Source: Chitinophagales bacterium
GTDB taxonomy: Bacteria; Bacillota; UBA5301; DYFA01
Length of the DNA stretch: 61,819 bases
Reading direction: 5' to 3'
Assembly: GCA_050260095.1 (NCBI GenBank)
Contig: JBLNBQ010000179.1
Span: forward strand, 1 to 61,819
A model generated the notes under the pieces. The model was not told the DNA's origin and ran no database searches. It was given only the letters and a program-made list of their open reading frames with translations. A program made the translations under genes and the position numbers. This document shows, piece after piece, positions 14,587-35,643 of this stretch (its first letter is position 1; each line of letters begins with the position of its first letter).

Positions 14587-14811
14587 ATGTGTCTGGCGGT
14601 TCCGGCAAAAGTGCTTTCGATCGACGGGACTCTGGCCCGGGTCGAGGTTGAGGGGAACGTGCGCGAGGTGGGCGTCCGTTTGGTGCCCGACGTCAAGGTG
14701 GGGGATTTCGTGCTGGTTCACGCCGGTTTCGCGGTGGAGATCGTGGACGAGAAGGCCGCCGAAGAGACCCTCGACATCTTTCGCCAGTTGTTGGGAGGGG
14801 AGAGCGCATGA
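14587..14811 (+). CDS. hypC: HypC chaperone
   Basis: MCLAVP, VLVHAGFA. Confidence 0.96.
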   Translation: MCLAVPAKVLSIDGTLARVEVEGNVREVGVRLVPDVKVGDFVLVHAGFAVEIVDEKAAEETLDIFRQLLGGESA

Positions 14812-15962
14812 CGGCTGCGTTGGACCTTCAGAGGCTCCACACGGCTGCCGAGGCCCTGGCCGACGGTGAAGTGGCTCGCGTCTTGGTCTCCCGCATCCAG
14901 CGCCGGGCGGGCAAGTTCGGCCGGCCCATCAACTTCATGGAGGTTTGCGGCACGCACACCGTGGCGATCTCTCGTTTCGGCCTGCGCGCCGTGCTTCCCA
15001 AGAGCGTCCGGCTGCTCTCCGGCCCGGGTTGTCCGGTCTGCGTGACCGATCAGGCCGACATCGATCTCTTCTTGGCCCTGGCGCGCCAGCCGAACGTCAT
15101 CGTCACCACCTTCGGCGACATGATCCGGGTGCCGGGGAGCGAGACGACCCTGGCGGCGGAGAAGGCCAAGGGACGGGACGTGCGGGTGGTCTATTCCCCG
15201 CTCGATGCCTTGGCGGTCGCCGAAGCCAACCCCGATGCGCTGGTCGTCTTCTATGCGGTGGGATTCGAGACCACCACGCCCATGGTGGCCGCGACCCTCG
15301 AAGTGGCGGCGCAGAAGGGGATAGGTAACTTCACCATTTACCCGGTGCACAAGACGGTGCCGGAGGCGCTCGCCGCGCTGCTCTCATCGGAGGGCGTCCG
15401 CATCGACGGGTTCCTGCTCCCGGGCCACGTCAGCGCCATCATCGGCGCGGGCGCCTACCGGGAGGTGGTTGAACGCTTCCACGTCCCGTCGGTGATCGCC
15501 GGCTTCGAGGGCAACGACATCCTGCTGGCGGTCGACATGCTCCTGGCCCAACTCGAGGCGGGAGAGGCCAAAGTGGAGATCGAGTACCGGCGGGCGGTGA
15601 CCTGGGAGGGGAACGAGACTGCCCAGCGGCTCGTCGCCCAGTTCTTCACGCCGGTCGATGCCAGCTGGCGGGGCATCGGGGTGATCCCCGGCACCGGGCT
15701 GGCTCTCCGCCCGGAGTACGCCCAGTTCGACGTCCGCAACCGCTTCGACACGGAGGCGCTCAAGGCGGCCCTGCCCGAGGTGCCCGCCAGGCTCAAGGCC
15801 TGCGCCTGCGGCGAGGTGCTTCAGGGCGTCAAATTGCCGACCGAGTGCCGCCTCTTCGGCACGGCCTGCACGCCGGTCTCGCCGGTGGGGCCGTGCATGG
15901 TCTCGAGCGAAGGCTCATGCGCCGCGTATTACCGGTACGAACGCCATCAAGGAGGACGGTAG
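14808..15962 (+). CDS. hypD: HypD
   Basis: MEVCGTHT, GPGCPVC, GFETT, PGHVS, GPCMVSSEGSC. Confidence 0.96.
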   Translation: MTAALDLQRLHTAAEALADGEVARVLVSRIQRRAGKFGRPINFMEVCGTHTVAISRFGLRAVLPKSVRLLSGPGCPVCVTDQADIDLFLALARQPNVIVTTFGDMIRVPGSETTLAAEKAKGRDVRVVYSPLDALAVAEANPDALVVFYAVGFETTTPMVAATLEVAAQKGIGNFTIYPVHKTVPEALAALLSSEGVRIDGFLLPGHVSAIIGAGAYREVVERFHVPSVIAGFEGNDILLAVDMLLAQLEAGEAKVEIEYRRAVTWEGNETAQRLVAQFFTPVDASWRGIGVIPGTGLALRPEYAQFDVRNRFDTEALKAALPEVPARLKACACGEVLQGVKLPTECRLFGTACTPVSPVGPCMVSSEGSCAAYYRYERHQGGR

Positions 15963-15965
15963 GCC

Positions 15966-16991
15966 ATGGAAGACGTCATTCTGCTGGCCCACGGCAGCGG
16001 CGGGGGCCAGACGCACCGCCTGATCGACCAGGTCTTCCGCAGGCGCCTGGACAACGAGTTCCTCCGCCAGGGGGACGACGCGGCTCTGTTGCCGCCCCCC
16101 GCGGAACTGGCGGCGGAAGGGGCGCGCCTCGCCTTCACCACCGACTCTTTCGTGGTGAAACCGCTCTTCTTCCGGGGGGGCAACATCGGCAAGCTGGCGG
16201 TCTGCGGGACGGTGAACGACCTCGCGGTGCAGGGCGCCGAACCTCTCTACCTCAGCCTCGCCTTCATCATAGAGGAAGGGCTTTCCTTTTCCGACCTCGA
16301 AAAGATAGTCGACGCCATCGCCGCCACGGCGGCTGACGCCGGGGTCAGGATCGTCACCGGCGACACCAAGGTGGTCGAGCGGGGCAAGGCCGACGGCCTC
16401 TACATCAACACGGCCGGCATCGGGGTGGTTCCGGCCGGGCGAAACCTGGGAGGAGCGCTGGCCCGTCCGGGCGACCAGGTGCTGGTCTCCGGCACCCTCG
16501 GCGAGCATACCATGGCGGTGCTGTCCGAGCGGGCCGGCCTCTCTTGGGAGACGCCGCTGGCCAGCGACTGCGCGCCGCTAAACGGCTTGGTCAGGGAGCT
16601 TCTGGCCGCGGTGCCGGAGACCCGCGTCCTGCGCGACCCGACCCGGGGCGGGCTGGCGACCACCCTCAACGAGATTGCACGACAGTCCAAGGTGGGGATC
16701 CGCCTGCAGGAGACGGCGATCCCCGTCAGCCCGGAGGTCAGGGGCGCCTGCGACATGCTGGGGTTCGACCCGCTCTACGCGGCCAACGAGGGGAAGGTCA
16801 TCGTGGTGGTACCCCCGGGAAGGGCTGAGGCGGCGCTTGAGGCCCTGCGTCGTCACCCCTACGGCAAAGATGCAGCCTTGATCGGCGAGGTGCGGGAGGA
16901 TCCCAACAGTCTGGTCACGATGGTCACCCGGTTTGGCGGCGAACGGGTGCTCGACATGCTCGAAGGAGAGATGCTCCCGCGCATCTGTTGA
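15966..16991 (+). CDS. hypE: HypE
   Basis: LAHGSGG, TTDSFVV, GDTKVV, RDPTRGG, C-terminal PRIC. Confidence 0.96.
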   Translation: MEDVILLAHGSGGGQTHRLIDQVFRRRLDNEFLRQGDDAALLPPPAELAAEGARLAFTTDSFVVKPLFFRGGNIGKLAVCGTVNDLAVQGAEPLYLSLAFIIEEGLSFSDLEKIVDAIAATAADAGVRIVTGDTKVVERGKADGLYINTAGIGVVPAGRNLGGALARPGDQVLVSGTLGEHTMAVLSERAGLSWETPLASDCAPLNGLVRELLAAVPETRVLRDPTRGGLATTLNEIARQSKVGIRLQETAIPVSPEVRGACDMLGFDPLYAANEGKVIVVVPPGRAEAALEALRRHPYGKDAALIGEVREDPNSLVTMVTRFGGERVLDMLEGEMLPRIC

Positions 16992-17015: not shown

Positions 17016-18533
17016 ATGAAGGCCAGAATCCTGCTGGCAGATGACAGTCCCACCATCCTCAAAGTGGTGGGGTCGGTGCTCGAACACCAGGGTTACGAAG
17101 TGATCACCGCGAGCAACGGGGTCGAGGCGGCCGAAAAGGCCTATCTGGTCGGCCCCGACCTGGTGCTGCTCGACGTCATGATGCCCCGCCTGAACGGGTA
17201 TCAGGTTTGCCGGTTGATCAAGAACGAGCCGGCGCTGCGCCACGTGCCGGTGGTCATCCTCACCTCGCGCGACCAACCCCGCGACCGGTTCTGGGGTTAT
17301 CAGACCGGGGCCGACGAATACGTGACCAAGGGGTTCGACCAGGAGCGACTACTCCAGGTGGTGGCCGAGCTGTTGGACAAGCGGGGGGAATGGGGGACCG
17401 GCGAGGTCGACCGGGCCGCGGCGGCGGGTTCGGCTATCGTCGACATCCTGGCCTTGTCCAACGACTTGCTCGACCGGAAACTCTTCGAGGCGACGGTCGT
17501 CAACGAACTGGGCAAACTGGCGACGGTCATGCAGAGCTACGAACAGACCGTGGACGCCGTTTTGAGCCTGGTCCATCGCCTGGTCGACTACTCGGTGGCC
17601 GCCGTGGCGACCGTCCATGAGGGACAGGGCGAGCTGACGCTCAAGATCCGCACACCGGTGGTCCGGGAGTATCTCGAAGAGTTCAAACAGCGAACTTTCG
17701 ACGCTTTCCACGCCTACTTCCGCGGGGCGCACCTGTTCCACGGCTTCCGGAGCAACGTGCTCTATGCCGATGGCTTGGCGACCACCATGGAGGTGGAGGG
17801 CGCCCCCACCGCGGTGGAAGACTTCCTCTTCGTGCCCATCATGGCCAAGGGCGAAGTGGTCGGCGGCCTGGCCCTGGCCCATCCGCCGGGCGGTCACTTT
17901 ACCGCTGAGGACCAGGCGAATCTTCAGTTGATCGCCACCCACGCCTATTTGGTCATCGAGAACGCTTTCCTCTACGAGCAGGTCAAGCAGCTTTCGATCA
18001 CCGACGGCTTGACCAGGGTTTTCAACCGGCGGTACCTGGAAGACCGCTTGGAGCAGGAATTTCGCCGCAGCCAGCGCCACAAGACATTCCTCTCTTGCCT
18101 GATGATGGACATCGACCATTTCAAACAGATCAACGACACCTACGGCCACCAGGCGGGCGACCTGGTGCTACGCAAGCTGATGGAGCTTTGCCGCCAGGTC
18201 ACCCGGTCAACCGACATCATCGGCCGGTTCGGCGGAGAGGAGTTCGTGGTGCTCCTTCCCGAAACCGATACCCTGGGGGGCAAATGCGTGGCCGAGCGCT
18301 TGCGGAAGCTGGTCGAAAGCCAGACTTTCACGACTGACGCCGGTCCGGTCCGGATGACCATCAGCCTTGGACTCTGCTCGATACCGGCGGTAGGCGTCGA
18401 GGAACCGGCCGACCTAATCAAGCAGACCGACGCGGCGCTTTATGAGGCCAAGCACAGCGGGCGTAACAAGACTTGCGTGGCCAAGGTGAATCTGCCGCTG
18501 GAAGACGGCCAGGGCGGGGCCTGCGCTTCCTGA
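17016..18533 (+). CDS. Response-regulator diguanylate cyclase (REC-GAF-GGDEF)
   Basis: REC (LLADD, LLDVMMP), GAF-like middle region, DGLT..NRR, DIDHFK, RSTD I-site, GGEEF. Confidence 0.93.
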   Translation: MKARILLADDSPTILKVVGSVLEHQGYEVITASNGVEAAEKAYLVGPDLVLLDVMMPRLNGYQVCRLIKNEPALRHVPVVILTSRDQPRDRFWGYQTGADEYVTKGFDQERLLQVVAELLDKRGEWGTGEVDRAAAAGSAIVDILALSNDLLDRKLFEATVVNELGKLATVMQSYEQTVDAVLSLVHRLVDYSVAAVATVHEGQGELTLKIRTPVVREYLEEFKQRTFDAFHAYFRGAHLFHGFRSNVLYADGLATTMEVEGAPTAVEDFLFVPIMAKGEVVGGLALAHPPGGHFTAEDQANLQLIATHAYLVIENAFLYEQVKQLSITDGLTRVFNRRYLEDRLEQEFRRSQRHKTFLSCLMMDIDHFKQINDTYGHQAGDLVLRKLMELCRQVTRSTDIIGRFGGEEFVVLLPETDTLGGKCVAERLRKLVESQTFTTDAGPVRMTISLGLCSIPAVGVEEPADLIKQTDAALYEAKHSGRNKTCVAKVNLPLEDGQGGACAS

Positions 18534-18629
18534 CGCTGCACCGGTAGGGCGGACCCCTCTGGTTCGCCCTGCCAGGAAGACCATTATCTCCCATGTGTAT
18601 GGGGGCGGTCTGCCGGACACCGTAATAGC

Positions 18630-19030
18630 GAGGTTTGCAACGGCCGAGCCAAGATCAGTACGAGGTCCACCAGGGCTTCGTATTGGTCGGCCAAAGGTTG
18701 CTACAGGATCCTTTTGGGTTCTGTAGTAGCCGGCGGGCAGATCGTCGTGGGTTCCGATCCGGGTTTGCAGTAGCCCGAACGGTTACTGCAGGCTCGTCAG
18801 GGATTCACGGCGGTCGAGCTAAGATCATCACGGGTTCCGCACTCACAATGGTCATGTGGCCTTGGGGTTTACGGCAGCCGAAAGGTTGTCGTAGGCTCCG
18901 TAGGTATCCGTGATGGTCGAGCAACGGTTATTGTAGGTTCCGTAAGGGTCTATTGCAGCCGAAAGGTTGCAGTTGGCTCTGAGGGAATCTGCAGTAGCCC
19001 GAGCAAAGGTCGTTGCAGGCCTTTTTTTAC
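18630..19030 (+). ncRNA. Candidate large structured ncRNA: nine 16-bp helices, six-way junction, 3' U-tract; family unknown
   Basis: Manual pairing of 18 alternating 16-nt arms gives 142/144 positions paired (36 G-U, 2 U-U, 0 A-C). The closing helix 18630-18645:19008-19023 runs into T7. Confidence 0.8.
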
Positions 19031-19110
19031 ATAGAGGGAAAGTCTTGCACCTGGTCGAAGGGTAACCTGACCACGCCGTCAGACGGCCCGACAGGAGCGA
19101 ATCGCCCAGG

Positions 19111-21117
19111 ATGCGGTCAGCCAGTCGTCCTCCCTCTGTCATCAGGCCAATTCTCGCCGGAATGCTCACGCTCGCAGTCATGCTGGGCGCCGTTGGCGTT
19201 TCCGCCAGGGCCGCGCTCCTGCCTCCCGCTCCTCCTTCCAATCTCACTCTTGTCTTCAACGGGGAAACCCAAGCGAACCAAGGACGATTGGTGGGCGGGG
19301 TGATCCTCGTCCCGCTCGAGGCCCTGACGCGCCAGTTCGCCATCGCCTCGGGCTACCTTCAGGAGACGCGCACCCTCCGGCTGGAGTCTTTCGGCAAGGT
19401 GGTCTATCTCACTCTCGGCAACAAGGTCGCGCTGGCCGACGGGAAGAGTCTCAAGCTCGTGGAACCGGCTCAGCTCTTCGATGGCCGCATCTACGTCCCG
19501 CTCCGCTTCTTGGGCGAGCTGTTGGGCCTGGAGGTCGTCTACTCCGCCCGCGAGAGACGGGTCGAGGTCCGAGGTCCCGAATACGGTGTCACGGCGGTCG
19601 CTTTCGGAATGCAAGACGGGCGGCCGGCGGTGACCATCGATGCCACTCGCCCGCCCTCGGTGCGGCCGAGCCTCAAGCGCAACCCGCTCCGGGTGGTCTT
19701 GGACGTCGAAGGCGGGCGGCTCGCCGTGGCGCCCGGCACCACCAGCACCCAGGATCCGGTGGCGCCCAAGCTTGCGTGGGCCCAGCCCCGTCCCGATCTC
19801 GCCCAGGTCACCATCACCCTTGGCCGGGAGGTCGGCTATGAGCTGGTGCAGGACGGCTCCCGCTTCACGCTGCTCTTTCCGCCGGAAGTCAGGAGCGCTG
19901 CCCTGGTGACCCGCGACGGGCGCCGGTACCTGACCGTCGACGCCACCGCCCCGGTGAAGGCGAACGTCTCGCGGCTGTCCAACCCCGACCGGCTGGTCGT
20001 CGATTTCCCGGGCGCCGCGCTGGCCGGACCCGCCCGGATCGAGGTCGGCGACGCGTGGGTGGACAACCTCCGGCTCGGACAACTCGATGCGAGCACGGTG
20101 CGGGTCGTCGCGACGCTGGCGGGACCGCTCGGCTTCCGGGAGGAAGCCCTGCCGGACAGCGACCGCCCGCCCGCCACTATGTGGTCGGCTCATCTCTACA
20201 ACCGGGTGACCAAGCTGGAAACAGCCACCTTGCGCGACCGGAGCCAGGTCAGGATGGCCTTGGCGGTTCCGGCCGTCCCCGCGGTGGCCGTCGACCGGAA
20301 AGCGGGGCGGCTCTCGGTGAGTCTTTCGGAGACATTGGGGGAGGGACTCCCCTCCGAACTGGCCGTGGGCGACGGAACGGTGAGCCGGGTGCGGCTTGAG
20401 ACAGCCGGCCCTCCCAACCTGCAGGTGGCGCTGGACCTTCCGTACTACGTCGGGCACCAGGTCCTGGCGGAGACGCCGCGGGTGGCCGTGGTCGAGGTCA
20501 GCCGCTCCCCGGTCTATCGCCAGAAGATCTACCTCGATCCCGGGCACGGAGGGAGTGACCCGGGGGCAATCGGCCCCGGCGGGCTTCAGGAGAAAGAGGT
20601 CAACCTCGACGTCGCCCTCCGGGTGCGCGACCTGCTCACCGACGCGGGCGCCTTGGTGAGCCTCTCCCGGGAGACCGACGCCTTCATCCCGCTTCACGAC
20701 CGGCCGAAGGACGCCAACGACCGCCAGGTCGCCGCGTTCGTCAGCCTGCACCACAATGCCAGCCTGCGCAAGGATACCGGCACGGAGGTCTACTACCACC
20801 CCGAACACGGGGCCAGCAGGGACTTGGCGGTGGAGGTCCAGCGCCGGGTGCCCGAGGCGCTCGGCCTGCTCAATCGGGGCATCAAGATCAGCCGCGAGTT
20901 CGTCGTGCTGAAGGAGACCACCATGCCGGCCATCCTCGTCGAAGGAGGATTCATCTCCAACCCCGATGAGGAGAAGCGCTTGGCCGACCCCGCCTTCCGG
21001 CAGAAGGAGGCCGCCGCGGTGGCCGAGGGGATCATCGCTTTCTTCCGCGCCCAACTGGAGCTGCCCGCACCGCCCGCCGCTCCTCTCGCGACCGCCGCTG
21101 CCGACCCCGCCCGCTGA
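19111..21117 (+). CDS. N-acetylmuramoyl-L-alanine amidase (signal peptide, Cu-amine-oxidase-N-like stalk, AMIN domains, Amidase_3); start uncertain
   Basis: GRIYVPLRF; NPLRVVLD and NPDRLVVDF (AMIN); YLDPGHGGSDPGA, EKEVNL, SLHHNA, PAILVE. Confidence 0.9.
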   Translation: MRSASRPPSVIRPILAGMLTLAVMLGAVGVSARAALLPPAPPSNLTLVFNGETQANQGRLVGGVILVPLEALTRQFAIASGYLQETRTLRLESFGKVVYLTLGNKVALADGKSLKLVEPAQLFDGRIYVPLRFLGELLGLEVVYSARERRVEVRGPEYGVTAVAFGMQDGRPAVTIDATRPPSVRPSLKRNPLRVVLDVEGGRLAVAPGTTSTQDPVAPKLAWAQPRPDLAQVTITLGREVGYELVQDGSRFTLLFPPEVRSAALVTRDGRRYLTVDATAPVKANVSRLSNPDRLVVDFPGAALAGPARIEVGDAWVDNLRLGQLDASTVRVVATLAGPLGFREEALPDSDRPPATMWSAHLYNRVTKLETATLRDRSQVRMALAVPAVPAVAVDRKAGRLSVSLSETLGEGLPSELAVGDGTVSRVRLETAGPPNLQVALDLPYYVGHQVLAETPRVAVVEVSRSPVYRQKIYLDPGHGGSDPGAIGPGGLQEKEVNLDVALRVRDLLTDAGALVSLSRETDAFIPLHDRPKDANDRQVAAFVSLHHNASLRKDTGTEVYYHPEHGASRDLAVEVQRRVPEALGLLNRGIKISREFVVLKETTMPAILVEGGFISNPDEEKRLADPAFRQKEAAAVAEGIIAFFRAQLELPAPPAAPLATAAADPAR

Positions 21118-30519: not shown

Positions 30520-30596
30520 CGGGGCGTAGCGCAGTTTGGTAGCGCATCTGCTTTGGGAGCAGAGGGTCGCAGGTTCGAATCCTGTCGCCCCGACCA
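30520..30596 (+). tRNA. tRNA-Pro(TGG)
   Basis: Cloverleaf; anticodon arm TCTGC-TT-TGG-GA-GCAGA; GTTCGAA T-loop; encoded CCA. Confidence 0.96.
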
Positions 30597-30607
30597 CCAC
30601 TTGAGGG

Positions 30608-30637
30608 TTGCAGAAGGCCGGCTACCTGTGCTATCAT
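30608..30637 (+). promoter_or_regulatory. Sigma-A promoter for tRNA-Arg/tRNA-His
   Basis: TTGCAG, 18-bp spacer, TG-C-TATCAT (same GTGCTATCAT as the tRNA-Pro promoter). Confidence 0.55.
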
Positions 30638-30665
30638 GAGTAGGCTGGCCGGAAAGCGAGAACAT

Positions 30666-30741
30666 GCGCCTGTAGCTCAGTGGATAGAGCAGCTGCCTTC
30701 TAAGCAGCGGGCCGCAGGTTCGATTCCTGCCAGGCGCGCCA
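30666..30741 (+). tRNA. tRNA-Arg(TCT)
   Basis: Anticodon arm GCTGC-CT-TCT-AA-GCAGC; T-loop; encoded CCA. Confidence 0.96.
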
Positions 30742-30759
30742 GTTCCTCGCAAGCCGTAT

Positions 30760-30837
30760 GGTGGGTATAGCTCAGTTGGTTAGAGCGCCAGGTTGTGGCC
30801 CTGGAGGCCGTGGGTTCGAGTCCCACTACTCACCCCA
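30760..30837 (+). tRNA. tRNA-His(GTG)
   Basis: G-1, anticodon arm CCAGG-TT-GTG-GC-CCTGG, C73 and CCA. Confidence 0.96.
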
Positions 30838-35252: not shown

Positions 35253-35335
35253 GCGGAGATGGCGGAACTGGCAGACGCGCTAGCCTTAGGAGCTAGTGGG
35301 CGACCGTGCGGGTTCGATTCCCGCTCTCCGCACCA
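35253..35335 (+). tRNA. tRNA-Leu(TAG)
   Basis: Anticodon arm CTAGC-CT-TAG-GA-GCTAG, long variable arm, encoded CCA. Confidence 0.95.
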
Positions 35336-35394: not shown

Positions 35395-35643
35395 CTAGCC
35401 CTGGGCTGGCGGGCTGGCGGCGCCCTCTTCCTCGGCGAGCTTCTCCTCGCCCTTCTCGATCAGGCGCTTGACCATGTTCCCGCCGATCTTCCCGGCCTCC
35501 CGGACCGAGAGTTGGTCGGGATCCTGAAGGTCATCGTCGAGCCCCAGGTCGCGGGCCACCTCCATCTTGAGGTTCTCGTGGGCGTCCTCTTTCGCCTGTC
35601 CCTGCTGCTGTTTCGCCCGGTTCATCATGTCCAGGAAACTCAC
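35395..35643 (-). CDS. Small acid-soluble spore protein, alpha/beta-type
   Basis: LKMEVARDLG..LSVREAGKIGGNMVKRLI; GTG start after GGGAGGTG. Confidence 0.85.
   Translation of the reverse strand: MSFLDMMNRAKQQQGQAKEDAHENLKMEVARDLGLDDDLQDPDQLSVREAGKIGGNMVKRLIEKGEEKLAEEEGAASPPAQG

What the first reader, a model, noticed from the sequence alone, without database searches (positions are those of the whole stretch)
18630..19030. Unrecognised ~400-nt star-shaped RNA built from nine 16-bp helices around a six-way junction
Seen: the gap between the diguanylate cyclase and amidase genes holds 18 alternating 16-nt arms. A arms start at 18630, 18673, 18716, 18760, 18800, 18864, 18903, 18945 and 18984. 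B arms start at 18653, 18696, 18740, 18781, 18823, 18884, 18926, 18965 and 19008. Arm sequences differ, yet each has one near-perfect partner. A1:B9 closes the whole element. B1:A2 and B2:A3 are short hairpins. B3:A5, B5:A7 and B7:A9 are long arms capped by the hairpins A4:B4, A6:B6 and A8:B8, two of which have GAAA tetraloops. Of 144 positions, 142 pair, including 36 G-U, with 2 U-U and no A-C mismatches, so the fold works only for the + strand as single-stranded RNA. The six junction linkers are related (GAGCCAA, GGCCAAA, GGCGGGCA, GAGCTAA, GAGCAAC, CGAGCAAA). The closing helix runs into a T7 tract, like an intrinsic terminator. Inference: partner-specific compensatory changes between paralogous arms point to selection on RNA structure. 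Possible roles are a multivalent protein scaffold or sponge, a self-assembling RNA, or a precursor processed into uniform duplexes. It does not match any CRISPR, riboswitch, tmRNA, RNase P, 6S or SRP pattern I recognise.
Basis: partly seen in the sequence, partly recalled or inferred. Interest (0 to 1): 0.95.

Follow-up and report, generated by a model that had tools for sequence, protein, structure and literature searches.

The report
Nine-helix star RNA of spore-formers
The gap between two genes holds a real gene for a ~400-base RNA that folds into a star of nine look-alike helices, belongs to an uncatalogued family found only in spore-forming bacteria among those searched, and carries the kind of promoter used inside the developing spore.

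Summary
Window 18630-19023 (+) holds 18 arms of 16 nt that form nine helices: 106 Watson-Crick, 36 G-U and 2 U-U of 144 positions. The + strand folds at -248 kcal/mol (z -16.9), the - strand at -128.

It is a conserved RNA gene, not chance or a dispersed repeat. It occupies one locus in its own genome. Full-length homologues at 55-83% identity all take the same fold. In 64 sequences, 97.1% of cells pair and 120 of 144 pairs show compensatory changes. RNAalifold finds the same fold independently.

Rfam 15 has no match, and ten literature searches found no description.

A sub-domain model hits 70 of 151 genomes of the phylum. All 70 are among the 131 genomes with SASP genes, and none of the 20 without has it.

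The upstream region carries a conserved sigma-G/F-like promoter of the type found before SASP genes but not before spoIVA.

Best reading: a new forespore-expressed, trans-acting RNA that displays nine copies of one G-U-marked helix module. Expression and partner are untested.

The parts
18595..18599 (+). -35-like box GTGTA of the predicted forespore-type promoter
   Evidence: Same position in the two same-family homologues (GCATG, GGATG). The whole promoter scores at the 99.2 percentile of 4000 windows from the own genome, using a matrix built from other lineages.
18615..18624 (+). -10-like box GGA-CACCGTA (family consensus GGnCATA(A/C)TA), 18 nt after the -35 box
   Evidence: It matches only 8 of 11 positions of the recalled sigma-G consensus. 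It keeps the A and the final TA, which are near-invariant in the family (55 of 56 each).
18630..19030 (+). Predicted RNA, about 400 nt. The 5' end is inferred from promoter spacing and the 3' end from the U tract.
   Evidence: The ends are inferred, not mapped.
18630..18645 (+). P1, 5' strand (arm A1); pairs with 19008-19023
   Evidence: helix 1: 98.7% of cells paired, 11 of 16 pairs with changes on both sides.
18646..18652 (+). Linker J1, GAGCCAA
   Evidence: GAGCC(A/C)A in 49 of 64. Possible 2-bp pairing with J6 (95% paired, no change on both sides).
18653..18688 (+). Hairpin H1 (B1:A2, loop 18669-18672)
   Evidence: helix 2: 97.8% paired. The loop is variable (49 variants).
18689..18695 (+). 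Linker J2, GGCCAAA
   Evidence: 49 of 64. Pairs 2 bp with J3 (100% paired, 13 sequences changed on both sides).
18696..18731 (+). Hairpin H2 (B2:A3, loop 18712-18715)
   Evidence: helix 3: 98.1% paired. The loop is variable (54 variants).
18732..18739 (+). Linker J3, GGCGGGCA
   Evidence: 35 of 64.
18740..18815 (+). Long arm 3: B3:A5 capped by A4:B4 (loop CGAAC at 18776-18780; internal loop 18756-18759 / 18797-18799)
   Evidence: helices 5-7. The sub-domain model R1 also matches 18728-18838 at E 3.7e-14, which shows the arms are paralogous.
18816..18822 (+). Linker J4, GAGCTAA
   Evidence: 55 of 64. Its GCU pairs with AGC of J5 (96.9% paired, 4 sequences changed on both sides).
18823..18918 (+). 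Long arm 4: B5:A7 capped by A6:B6 (GAAA loop 18880-18883), with a variable insert at 18839-18863
   Evidence: helices 8, 9. Insert length is 3-51 nt across homologues; the cap loop is GNRA in 55 of 64.
18919..18925 (+). Linker J5, GAGCAAC
   Evidence: GAGCAAA in 48 of 64 and GAGCAAC in 4 of 64.
18926..18999 (+). Long arm 5: B7:A9 capped by A8:B8 (GAAA loop 18961-18964; internal loop GTA / GAG)
   Evidence: helices 10-12. Most conserved part of the RNA. Cap loop is GAAA in 47 of 64; internal loop is GUA in 48 of 64 opposite GCA or GUA in 50 of 64.
19000..19007 (+). Linker J6, CGAGCAAA
   Evidence: 21 variants, all of the form G-N-A-G-C/U-N-N-A.
19008..19023 (+). P1, 3' strand (arm B9)
19022..19028 (+). 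T7 tract, the likely transcript end
   Evidence: Across 64 homologues, 27 have a T run of 4 or more just after P1, 39 have a further strong hairpin, and 55 have one or the other.

Best explanation
Window 18630-19030 (+) is a free-standing gene for a ~400-nt structured non-coding RNA of a family not in Rfam 15. Shown: the RNA closes with helix P1. From a central junction it sends out two 16-bp hairpins and three long arms, each made of two 16-bp helices joined across a small purine-rich internal loop. All nine helices are copies of one module. Reading from the junction or cap end, the module is G-C, R-Y, U.G, Y-R, then about seven free Watson-Crick pairs, then the two-fold symmetric element 5'-GGNUC-3'/5'-GGNUC-3' with G.U and U.G wobbles. 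The six 7-8-nt linkers all resemble GAGCNAA and appear to pair with each other in three sets (J1:J6, J2:J3, J4:J5). The family occurs at one locus in this genome and at one to several loci in other genomes. Among the genomes searched it was found only in genomes that have sporulation genes. Inferred: it is transcribed from its own sigma-G/sigma-F-type promoter in the forespore and ends at P1 plus the U tract. It then acts in trans as a very stable multivalent platform. It presents up to nine equivalent helical sites, six of them paired tail-to-tail as three symmetric sites. These sites would bind several copies of one, probably dimeric, protein that recognises A-form helices in the developing or dormant spore, in the manner of 6S or CsrB-type sequestration. 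My odds: real conserved RNA gene, over 0.95. Forespore-type expression, about 0.65. Multivalent protein platform as the mode of action, about 0.35.
For: Fold and strand: -248 kcal/mol and z -16.85 on the + strand against -127.6 on the - strand. All 24 sequences folded (the window and 23 homologue stretches) fold far better on this strand than on the other.

Conservation: A1 holds 64 distinct sequences with GC 0.36-0.61 and 55-83% identity to the window. 97.1% of 9074 cells pair, against 31-44% when partners are slid. 120 of 144 pairs change on both sides, and 0 of 500 shuffles reach the observed values. RNAalifold, run without my structure, gives the same nine helices: 145 pairs, 118 with compensatory change, covariation term -44 kcal/mol.

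Module: over 9 helices x 64 sequences, wobble frequency is 83% at position 3, 91% at position 12 and 81% at position 14.

Linker pairs.

Not coding: the longest stop-free stretch has a median of 71 codons and is not conserved.

Free-standing gene: the immediate neighbours differ between genomes. Of 86 flanking ORFs, the largest cluster has 6 and 43 are singletons (Pfam). The downstream gene often lies on the opposite strand.

Promoter: the recalled sigma-G consensus is matched at 10 or more of 11 positions in 36 of 64 upstream windows, against 1.2% of 2999 control windows. The sigma-A consensus is matched at 11 or more of 12 in 0 of 64. The match sits at a fixed place, 5-6 nt before the alignment start in 28 of 36. 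The family consensus is G(A/T)ATA-N17-GGnCATA(A/C)TA. A matrix built from these promoters scores 17 of 27 SASP-gene upstream regions above the 95th percentile of controls, but only 3 of 28 spoIVA upstream regions.

Distribution: model R1 hits 70 of 151 genomes of the phylum. SASP genes are in 131 of the same 151. The RNA is in 70 of 131 SASP-positive and 0 of 20 SASP-negative genomes (Fisher 1.1e-6; related genomes are not independent). SpoIVA is missing from the same 8 of 61 relatives that lack SASP genes and the RNA.

Named hosts are Moorella/Neomoorella, Thermoanaerobacterium, Fervidicola, Thermovorax and Propionispora isolates, plus Desulforudis, Pelotomaculum, Desulfotomaculaceae and Dethiobacter MAGs.
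Against: No direct evidence of transcription. The RNA-seq contigs laid on the Moorella homologue span the whole 1.5 kb, and the two raw-read runs gave 0 reads.

The sigma-F/G, sigma-E, sigma-K and sigma-A consensus strings are recalled, not taken from a paper I could read.

The window's own promoter is a weak match: 8 of 11, a score that 13% of windows from its own genome also reach. Only the position-matched matrix score (99.2 percentile) supports it.

61 of 131 SASP-positive genomes gave no hit, so the RNA is not a universal part of sporulation. Alternatively, the 112-nt model with strict filters misses divergent copies.

No partner protein is known and no conserved neighbour points to one.

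Non-cognate arms are nearly complementary, so other conformers or intermolecular pairing are possible.

The association with spore-formers was tested within one phylum sample only.
Confidence: 0.55

Rival explanations
1. RNA-only architecture. The RNA works without a protein partner as a self-assembling particle or lattice. Contacts would come from its conserved GNRA cap loops docking into the conserved internal loops, or from swapping of the near-interchangeable A and B arms between molecules, as in the ROOL, GOLLD and OLE homo-oligomers.
For: The cap loops of arms 4 and 5 are GNRA in 55 of 64 and 52 of 64 sequences. The internal loops are conserved in sequence. Non-cognate arms pair 12.6 of 16 on average and up to 15 of 16. 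The linker pairs give the junction a three-fold pseudo-symmetry. Natural RNA-only homo-oligomers exist (PMC12286853, abstract from the listing).
Against: The loops of H1, H2 and the arm-3 cap vary freely (49, 54 and 38 variants). The central base pairs of each helix covary independently, which argues for cognate partners within one molecule. No tetraloop-receptor motif was identified. Nothing here tests oligomerisation.
Confidence: 0.2
2. Precursor RNA. The star is cut, for example by RNase III at the long arms, into uniform short duplexes or small RNAs, and these are the active species.
For: The helices have a uniform length of 16 bp. The three long arms approach two helical turns. The variable central base pairs could carry target specificity.
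Against: The variable cores covary to keep pairing, but they are not conserved as sequence the way guide or seed regions would be. The most conserved parts are the linkers, helix ends and loops, as expected for an intact folded particle. No processing data exist.
Confidence: 0.1
3. Cis-acting or DNA-level element: a REP/BIME-like palindromic repeat, a transcription terminator or insulator, an mRNA-stabilising 3' structure of the upstream gene, or a leader of the downstream gene.
For: It lies in an intergenic gap on the same strand as both neighbours in the window. It ends in a U tract.
Against: It occupies one locus in the genome. Neighbours and their orientation are not conserved. It has its own conserved promoter at a fixed distance. 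The 36 G-U pairs make the fold specific to one strand, which a DNA cruciform would not need.
Confidence: 0.03
4. RNA component of a mobile element or defence system: a retron or DRT-type template RNA, a type III antitoxin array, an IS-associated guide RNA, or a phage RNA.
For: Some genomes carry 2-4 copies, including two copies 2 kb apart on one contig.
Against: No conserved neighbouring protein. No reverse transcriptase, transposase or toxin family appears among the 25 families that one search lists for the 84 flanking ORFs (87 families matched in all). No match in 50,697 phage records or 72,556 plasmids, and none in viral contigs by pattern. The arms are not near-identical direct repeats.
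Confidence: 0.03
5. Same biology, but already described under a name I did not find, for example in a subscription journal or in supplementary tables of motif surveys. This affects novelty, not mechanism.
For: The family is common: 70 of 151 genomes of a phylum. Systematic surveys of bacterial intergenic regions exist (PMC5737381, PMC11109978, PMC2864571).
Against: Rfam 15 (4227 families) has no match in the window or in 8 homologue loci. Ten full-text searches found nothing. The main texts of two surveys have no mention of Moorella, Desulfotomaculum, Thermoanaerobacter or spores in connection with a motif of this kind.
Confidence: 0.1

Closest known systems
CsfG (forespore-specific small RNA of endospore formers; Marchais et al. 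2011, known to me only through passages of PMC3574147)
   Same: A non-coding RNA tied to sporulation. It is conserved in endospore-forming Bacillota and is said to be sporulation-specific. That it is controlled by sigma-F and sigma-G is recalled, not read.
   Different: CsfG is 136 nt, is the reverse complement of the ylbH leader motif, and has conserved CU-rich loops. The present RNA is about 400 nt, has G/U-rich arms and gives no ylbH hit in Rfam. They are unrelated in sequence and fold.
OLE, ROOL, GOLLD and raiA: large ornate bacterial ncRNAs
   Same: Large, highly structured, strongly covarying and free-standing RNAs, many of them in Bacillota. Function is unknown or only partly known. OLE is likewise found in anaerobic or extremophilic Bacillota (PMC12054373, abstract). 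raiA disruption affects sporulation (PMC10861870, abstract).
   Different: No Rfam match to any of them. Those RNAs have many different irregular helices, pseudoknots and multistem junctions (PMC5737381, passage). This RNA is built from nine copies of one regular 16-bp module around a single junction.
CsrB/RsmZ and 6S RNA: protein-sequestering RNAs (comparison from established knowledge, recalled)
   Same: The proposed logic is the same: one RNA offers repeated or mimic sites that titrate a protein in a particular growth state.
   Different: CsrB-type RNAs repeat single-stranded GGA loops, and 6S mimics an open promoter. Here the repeated unit is a double helix with fixed G-U wobbles. No partner is known, and no Rfam match to either class was found.
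REP/BIME and other intergenic palindromic repeats
   Same: An intergenic set of imperfect inverted repeats able to form hairpins.
   Different: Those occur in tens to hundreds of dispersed copies per genome. This element is at one locus, has its own promoter, and keeps a defined 400-nt architecture across a phylum.

Membership tests
Any Rfam 15 family (4227 models, including 6S, tmRNA, RNase P, SRP, OLE, ROOL, GOLLD, raiA, ylbH, riboswitches) | Score at or above the family's gathering threshold | tested here: not met
   (window 17500-20000, E up to 10): the only hits are miRNA, snoRNA or viral models with E 2.1-4.8, far below gathering. (whole window): 4 tRNAs only. (8 homologue loci from named records): nothing at the RNA.
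CsfG | About 136 nt, antisense to the ylbH leader motif, CU-rich conserved loops | tested here: not met
   Features taken from PMC3574147 passages. This RNA has a median length of 410 nt, no ylbH hit on either strand, and GNRA or variable loops.
CsfG | Forespore-specific transcription (sigma-F/sigma-G) | tested here: inconclusive
   A promoter of that type is predicted but expression was not observed. This is a shared working feature, not evidence of membership.
REP/BIME-type dispersed repeats | Many dispersed copies per genome | tested here: not met
   BLAST of the 421-nt query on the own genome: the only other hit with E under 0.01 is 27 nt long. All 4 hits of the covariance model lie inside the element.
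CRISPR array / type III antitoxin (ToxI-like) array | Near-identical direct repeats in tandem, with adjacent cas or toxin genes | tested here: not met
   Tandem Repeats Finder finds no array in 18630-19030. The arms differ in sequence. No cas or toxin family is among the flanks listed.
Cis-regulatory leader or riboswitch | Fixed position upstream of one gene class on the same strand | tested here: not met
   Downstream genes are unrelated and often on the opposite strand. The RNA carries its own terminator features.
Forespore (sigma-G/F) regulon member | Promoter matching GHATR-N17/18-CATXHTA (consensus recalled) at the right distance from the start | tested here: met
   Family: 36 of 64 match at 10 or more of 11, against 1.2% of controls. 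The matrix is shared with SASP-gene promoters (17 of 27) and not with spoIVA promoters (3 of 28). Window copy: only 8 of 11, at the 99.2 percentile by matrix.
Forespore (sigma-G/F) regulon member | Expression confined to the forespore and dependent on sigF/sigG | not testable with these tools
   One search gave no usable RNA evidence. This needs a sporulation time course and sigma-factor mutants.

The most novel reading that the evidence does not exclude
A new class of bacterial RNA particle made for the spore. The forespore would transcribe an extremely stable, pseudo-three-fold 'star' of nine identical-type A-form helices, each marked by fixed G-U wobbles. In the dehydrating spore core this RNA would act as a multivalent decoy or organiser for an abundant helix-binding spore protein. 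Candidates are alpha/beta-type SASPs, whose genes share its promoter type, or HU-like proteins. Alternatively it would form an RNA-only lattice through its interchangeable arms. Either way it would influence dormancy, resistance or germination.
Probability: 0.2. Interest if true: 0.95.

Novelty: categorically new. Interest (0 to 1): 0.88.

Why it matters
Large, strongly conserved bacterial RNAs without a known job are rare, and they have repeatedly led to new biochemistry. This one is unusually easy to test. Its fold is regular, very stable and supported at almost every base pair. That makes it well suited to cryo-EM, chemical probing and pull-downs.

Among the genomes searched it occurs only in spore-formers, and its promoter is of the type used for the spore's DNA-coating proteins. 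It could therefore reveal an RNA layer in spore development or dormancy, where only small RNAs such as CsfG are known. It would also be a natural example of a modular, origami-like RNA built by duplicating one helix.

Practically, the family should be added to RNA family libraries so that these loci stop being annotated as empty intergenic gaps.

Tried and rejected
1. Expression. The look-up of sequencing runs with the Moorella thermoacetica homologue, then read laying on L064:1-1500. Two RNA-seq runs hold the stretch only as 4.4-kb and 14.7-kb contigs that cover everything evenly. The two raw-read runs gave 0 reads. No verdict on transcription.

2. Searches of other phyla. Searches used 'phylum of' handles G159, G162 and G160, obtained from loci. 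They returned the same genomes at the same coordinates, under new handles. Breadth beyond the window's phylum rests only on the record names and NCBI lineages. MAG labels there are unreliable.

I used a 112-nt sub-domain covariance model instead. A full-length model exceeds the size the tool will calibrate.

4. Conserved neighbours as a clue to a partner: none found.

5. CsfG as the identity: rejected. The original CsfG paper is not held.

6. A printed sigma-F/G consensus to cite: not found. The consensus is therefore marked as recalled, and SASP and spoIVA promoters were used as internal positive and negative controls. A first SASP control with a fixed 62-nt window was poor: only 10 of 27 reached 9 or more of 11, because promoter distance varies.

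7. Phage, plasmid or viral origin: no match.

8. Tandem repeat, CRISPR and coding readings: rejected.

9. The search of earlier findings was not open.

10. Complex prediction, protein structure tools and the metagenome scan were not used, because no protein partner is in hand.
Full report
**1.

The 18 arms of 16 nt start where stated and pair as stated. Of 144 positions, 106 are Watson-Crick, 36 are G-U and 2 are U-U. None is A-C.

The linkers, the two GAAA loops and the T7 run (19022-19028) are as described. RNAfold of 18620-19040 (+) returns the same nested fold at -248 kcal/mol. Shuffles average -145, giving z -16.85, and 0 of 100 shuffles fold as well. The reverse strand reaches only -127.6 kcal/mol with z -3.34. 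The fold therefore belongs to the + strand as RNA.

One claim needs tempering. Non-cognate A x B arm pairs still match 12.6 of 16 on average and up to 15 of 16, against 6.5 for random 16-mers. All A arms resemble each other, and so do all B arms. Partner choice cannot be read from this one sequence alone.

**2. It is a conserved gene, present at one locus**

In the window's own assembly (2.69 Mb, 197 contigs) the 421-nt query finds only itself. The next hit is 27 nt at E 0.006. All four hits of a sub-domain covariance model lie inside the element.

Among 60 relatives, BLAST finds homologues at E below 1e-5 in 22 genomes of many families, with 65-85% identity. About ten of these matches cover nearly the whole query.

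I fetched these loci. I also fetched 47 further stretches found with a two-motif pattern in one genome per GTDB species. All 24 sequences folded take the same architecture, at -101 to -293 kcal/mol on this strand against -47 to -190 on the other. The 48 pattern sites fold at -124 to -286 kcal/mol.

Alignment A1 holds 64 distinct sequences, nearly all full-length. Median length is 410 nt, GC is 0.36-0.61, and identity to the window is 55-83%.

- 97.1% of 9074 cells pair, against 31-44% when partners are slid by 1-3 columns.
- 120 of 144 pairs change on both sides.
- No shuffle of 500 reaches the observed values.

RNAalifold, given only the alignment, predicts the same nine helices. It finds 145 pairs, 118 with compensatory change, and an energy of -235 kcal/mol of which -44 is covariation.

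No reading frame is conserved. Tandem Repeats Finder sees no array.

**3. Anatomy**

The primary sequence is nine repeats of [A arm - linker - B arm - linker]. Every helix is a B arm paired to an A arm.

Oriented from the junction or cap end, the pooled module over 9 x 64 helices reads as follows:
- Position 1: G-C, 89%.
- Position 2: R-Y.
- Position 3: U.G, 80%.
- Position 4: Y-R.
- Positions 5-10: free Watson-Crick pairs.
- Position 11: mostly G-C or G.U.
- Position 12: G.U, 88%.
- Position 13: any pair.
- Position 14: U.G, 73%.
- Position 15: C-G.

The far end is thus a two-fold symmetric 5'-GGNUC-3'/5'-GGNUC-3' element. In the three long arms, two such ends face each other across a conserved 3 x 3 purine-rich loop. 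In arm 5 this loop is GUA in 48 of 64, opposite GCA or GUA in 50 of 64.

The caps of arms 4 and 5 are GNRA loops in 55 and 52 of 64. The loops of H1, H2 and arm 3 vary freely, and arm 4 carries a 3-51-nt insert.

The six linkers resemble GAGCNAA. J4 is GAGCUAA in 55 of 64, J5 is GAGCAAA in 48, and J2 is GGCCAAA in 49.

RNAalifold and a targeted count suggest that the linkers pair with each other:
- J2:J3: 2 bp, 100% paired, 13 sequences changed on both sides.
- J4:J5: 3 bp, 96.9% paired, 4 sequences changed on both sides.
- J1:J6: possibly 2 bp, 95% paired, only G-C to G-U changes.

The 'open six-way junction' may therefore have a three-fold pseudo-symmetric core. This refinement is tentative.

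**4. Context and ends**

In the window the RNA lies between a receiver-GAF-GGDEF gene and an Amidase_3/AMIN gene. Neighbours are not conserved elsewhere. Of 86 flanking ORFs, the largest similarity cluster has 6 members and 43 are singletons. Pfam shows a mixed bag. The downstream gene often lies on the other strand. This argues for a trans-acting RNA with its own signals.

Downstream of P1, 27 of 64 homologues have a T run of 4 or more, 39 have a further strong hairpin, and 55 have one or the other. The window copy has T7. No sigma-70-type promoter is found in 18300-19300.

**5. A forespore-type promoter**

The 60 nt upstream of the 64 homologues share two boxes at a fixed distance. I scored them against consensus strings that I recall from the Bacillus literature. 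I could not find a paper in the library that prints them.

- The sigma-G pattern GHATR-N17/18-CATXHTA is matched at 10 or more of 11 positions in 36 of 64 upstream windows. Only 1.2% of 2999 random windows from the same loci do as well.
- In 28 of those 36, the -10 box ends 5-6 nt before the alignment start.
- The sigma-A pattern is matched at 11 or more of 12 in 0 of 64.
- The family consensus is G(A/T)ATA-N17-GGnCATA(A/C)TA.

As an internal control I built a matrix from 56 of these promoters.
- 17 of 27 upstream regions of alpha/beta-type SASP genes score above the 95th percentile of 3000 control windows, and 5 score above the 99th. SASP genes (PF00269) are classic sigma-G targets by established knowledge.
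- Only 3 of 28 upstream regions of spoIVA score above the 95th percentile, and 0 above the 99th. SpoIVA is a mother-cell gene.

The window's own copy is a weak match. Its boxes are GTGTA at 18595 and GGA-CACCGTA at 18615, and they match 8 of 11. With a matrix built without its own family, it still reaches the 99.2 percentile of 4000 windows from its own genome. It does so at the same position as its two closest relatives.

**6. Distribution**

A 112-nt covariance model of arm 5 plus its linkers hits 70 of 151 genomes sampled from the window's phylum, or 65 of 140 high-quality ones. Some genomes carry 2-4 loci.

SASP genes are present in 131 of the same 151 genomes. The RNA is in 70 of the 131 and in 0 of the 20 without SASP genes. 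Fisher's test gives 1.1e-6. Related genomes are not independent, and the 20 fall in about 11 families.

In the 61-genome set, SASP genes and SpoIVA are missing from the same 8 genomes, and none of these has the RNA.

Named carriers include Moorella/Neomoorella, Thermoanaerobacterium, Fervidicola, Thermovorax and Propionispora isolates. Propionispora belongs to the class Negativicutes, and Thermoanaerobacterium and Moorella belong to the class Clostridia.

Three attempts to sample other phyla only re-searched the same genomes. No match was found in phage or plasmid collections or in viral contigs.

**7. Comparison with what is known**

Rfam 15 gives nothing at this RNA in the window or in eight homologue loci from named records.

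CsfG is the known forespore small RNA of endospore-formers. It is a 136-nt RNA antisense to the ylbH motif with CU-rich loops (PMC3574147, passages). It is a functional analogue at most.

OLE, ROOL, GOLLD and raiA share the status of 'large, ornate, function unknown', but they are irregular folds and do not match.

Ten full-text searches found no description. The main texts of two motif surveys do not mention such an RNA.

**8. What it most likely does**

Shown: a conserved, strand-specific, modular RNA fold; a single locus in this genome; presence, among the genomes searched, only in genomes with sporulation genes; and a conserved promoter of the SASP type.

Inferred: forespore transcription, the two ends, and action in trans.

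Most speculative is the mechanism. The module repeats nine times with wobble pairs fixed at the same three positions. The helix ends are two-fold symmetric, and the three long arms are built tail-to-tail. I therefore favour a multivalent platform for a dimeric helix-binding protein of the developing spore, at about 0.35. An RNA-only assembly is the main rival at about 0.2, and a processed precursor stands at about 0.1.

Transcription could not be tested. The RNA-seq contigs were uninformative and the raw-read runs were empty.

**9. Verdict**

This is a real and very well supported new structured RNA family with an unexpected link to sporulation. Its function is open. It is of high interest.

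Noticed in passing
L064:1418-1506 (-), beside the Moorella thermoacetica copy at L064:156-557: A c-di-GMP-I riboswitch (84 bits) leads the gene that converges on the RNA. In the window the RNA follows a GGDEF diguanylate cyclase gene, and the flank of L062 is also a GGDEF protein. This may be coincidence.
   Followed up: no
window 35437-35589 (-): A weaker SASP-family match (E 1.4e-13) lies in the same window. Two stronger SASP genes are on other contigs of the genome. The organism therefore has spore DNA-binding proteins.
   Followed up: partly
window 30520-30837 and 35253-35335 (+): Four tRNA genes: Pro-TGG, Arg-TCT, His-GTG and Leu-TAG.
   Followed up: no
window 14808-16991 (+): HypD and a HypE-like AIR-synthase-related protein (hydrogenase maturation) lie just upstream of the GGDEF gene.
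   Followed up: no
L046:217-628 and L046:2204-2615; G160 contigs C14, C5, C2: Some genomes carry several copies. There are two copies 2 kb apart on one contig labelled Pelotomaculum, with a third on L041. The Propionispora isolate has three loci.
   Followed up: partly
window 19005-19024 (+): A small local hairpin (7 pairs) ahead of the T run could compete with the 3' strand of P1 as an alternative terminator stem.
   Followed up: no
SASP-gene upstream regions, e.g. L088, L091, L100, L102, L104, L106: Many SASP promoters in these relatives share an extra TTCTAG motif just before the -35 box. A similar CTAG(C/T)AT is seen before some copies of the RNA.
   Followed up: no
L064:5570-5665 and L069:4922-5015 (-): tRNA-Sec genes lie a few kb from the RNA in two Moorella/Neomoorella loci.
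   Followed up: no
tool behaviour: the genome search with where='phylum' and 'of' set to handles obtained from genome-contig loci returned the same sample as the window's own phylum. Either those records (labelled Aneurinibacillus, C. thermobutyricum and Propionispora) are filed in that phylum, or the grouping falls back to the window's.
   Followed up: no
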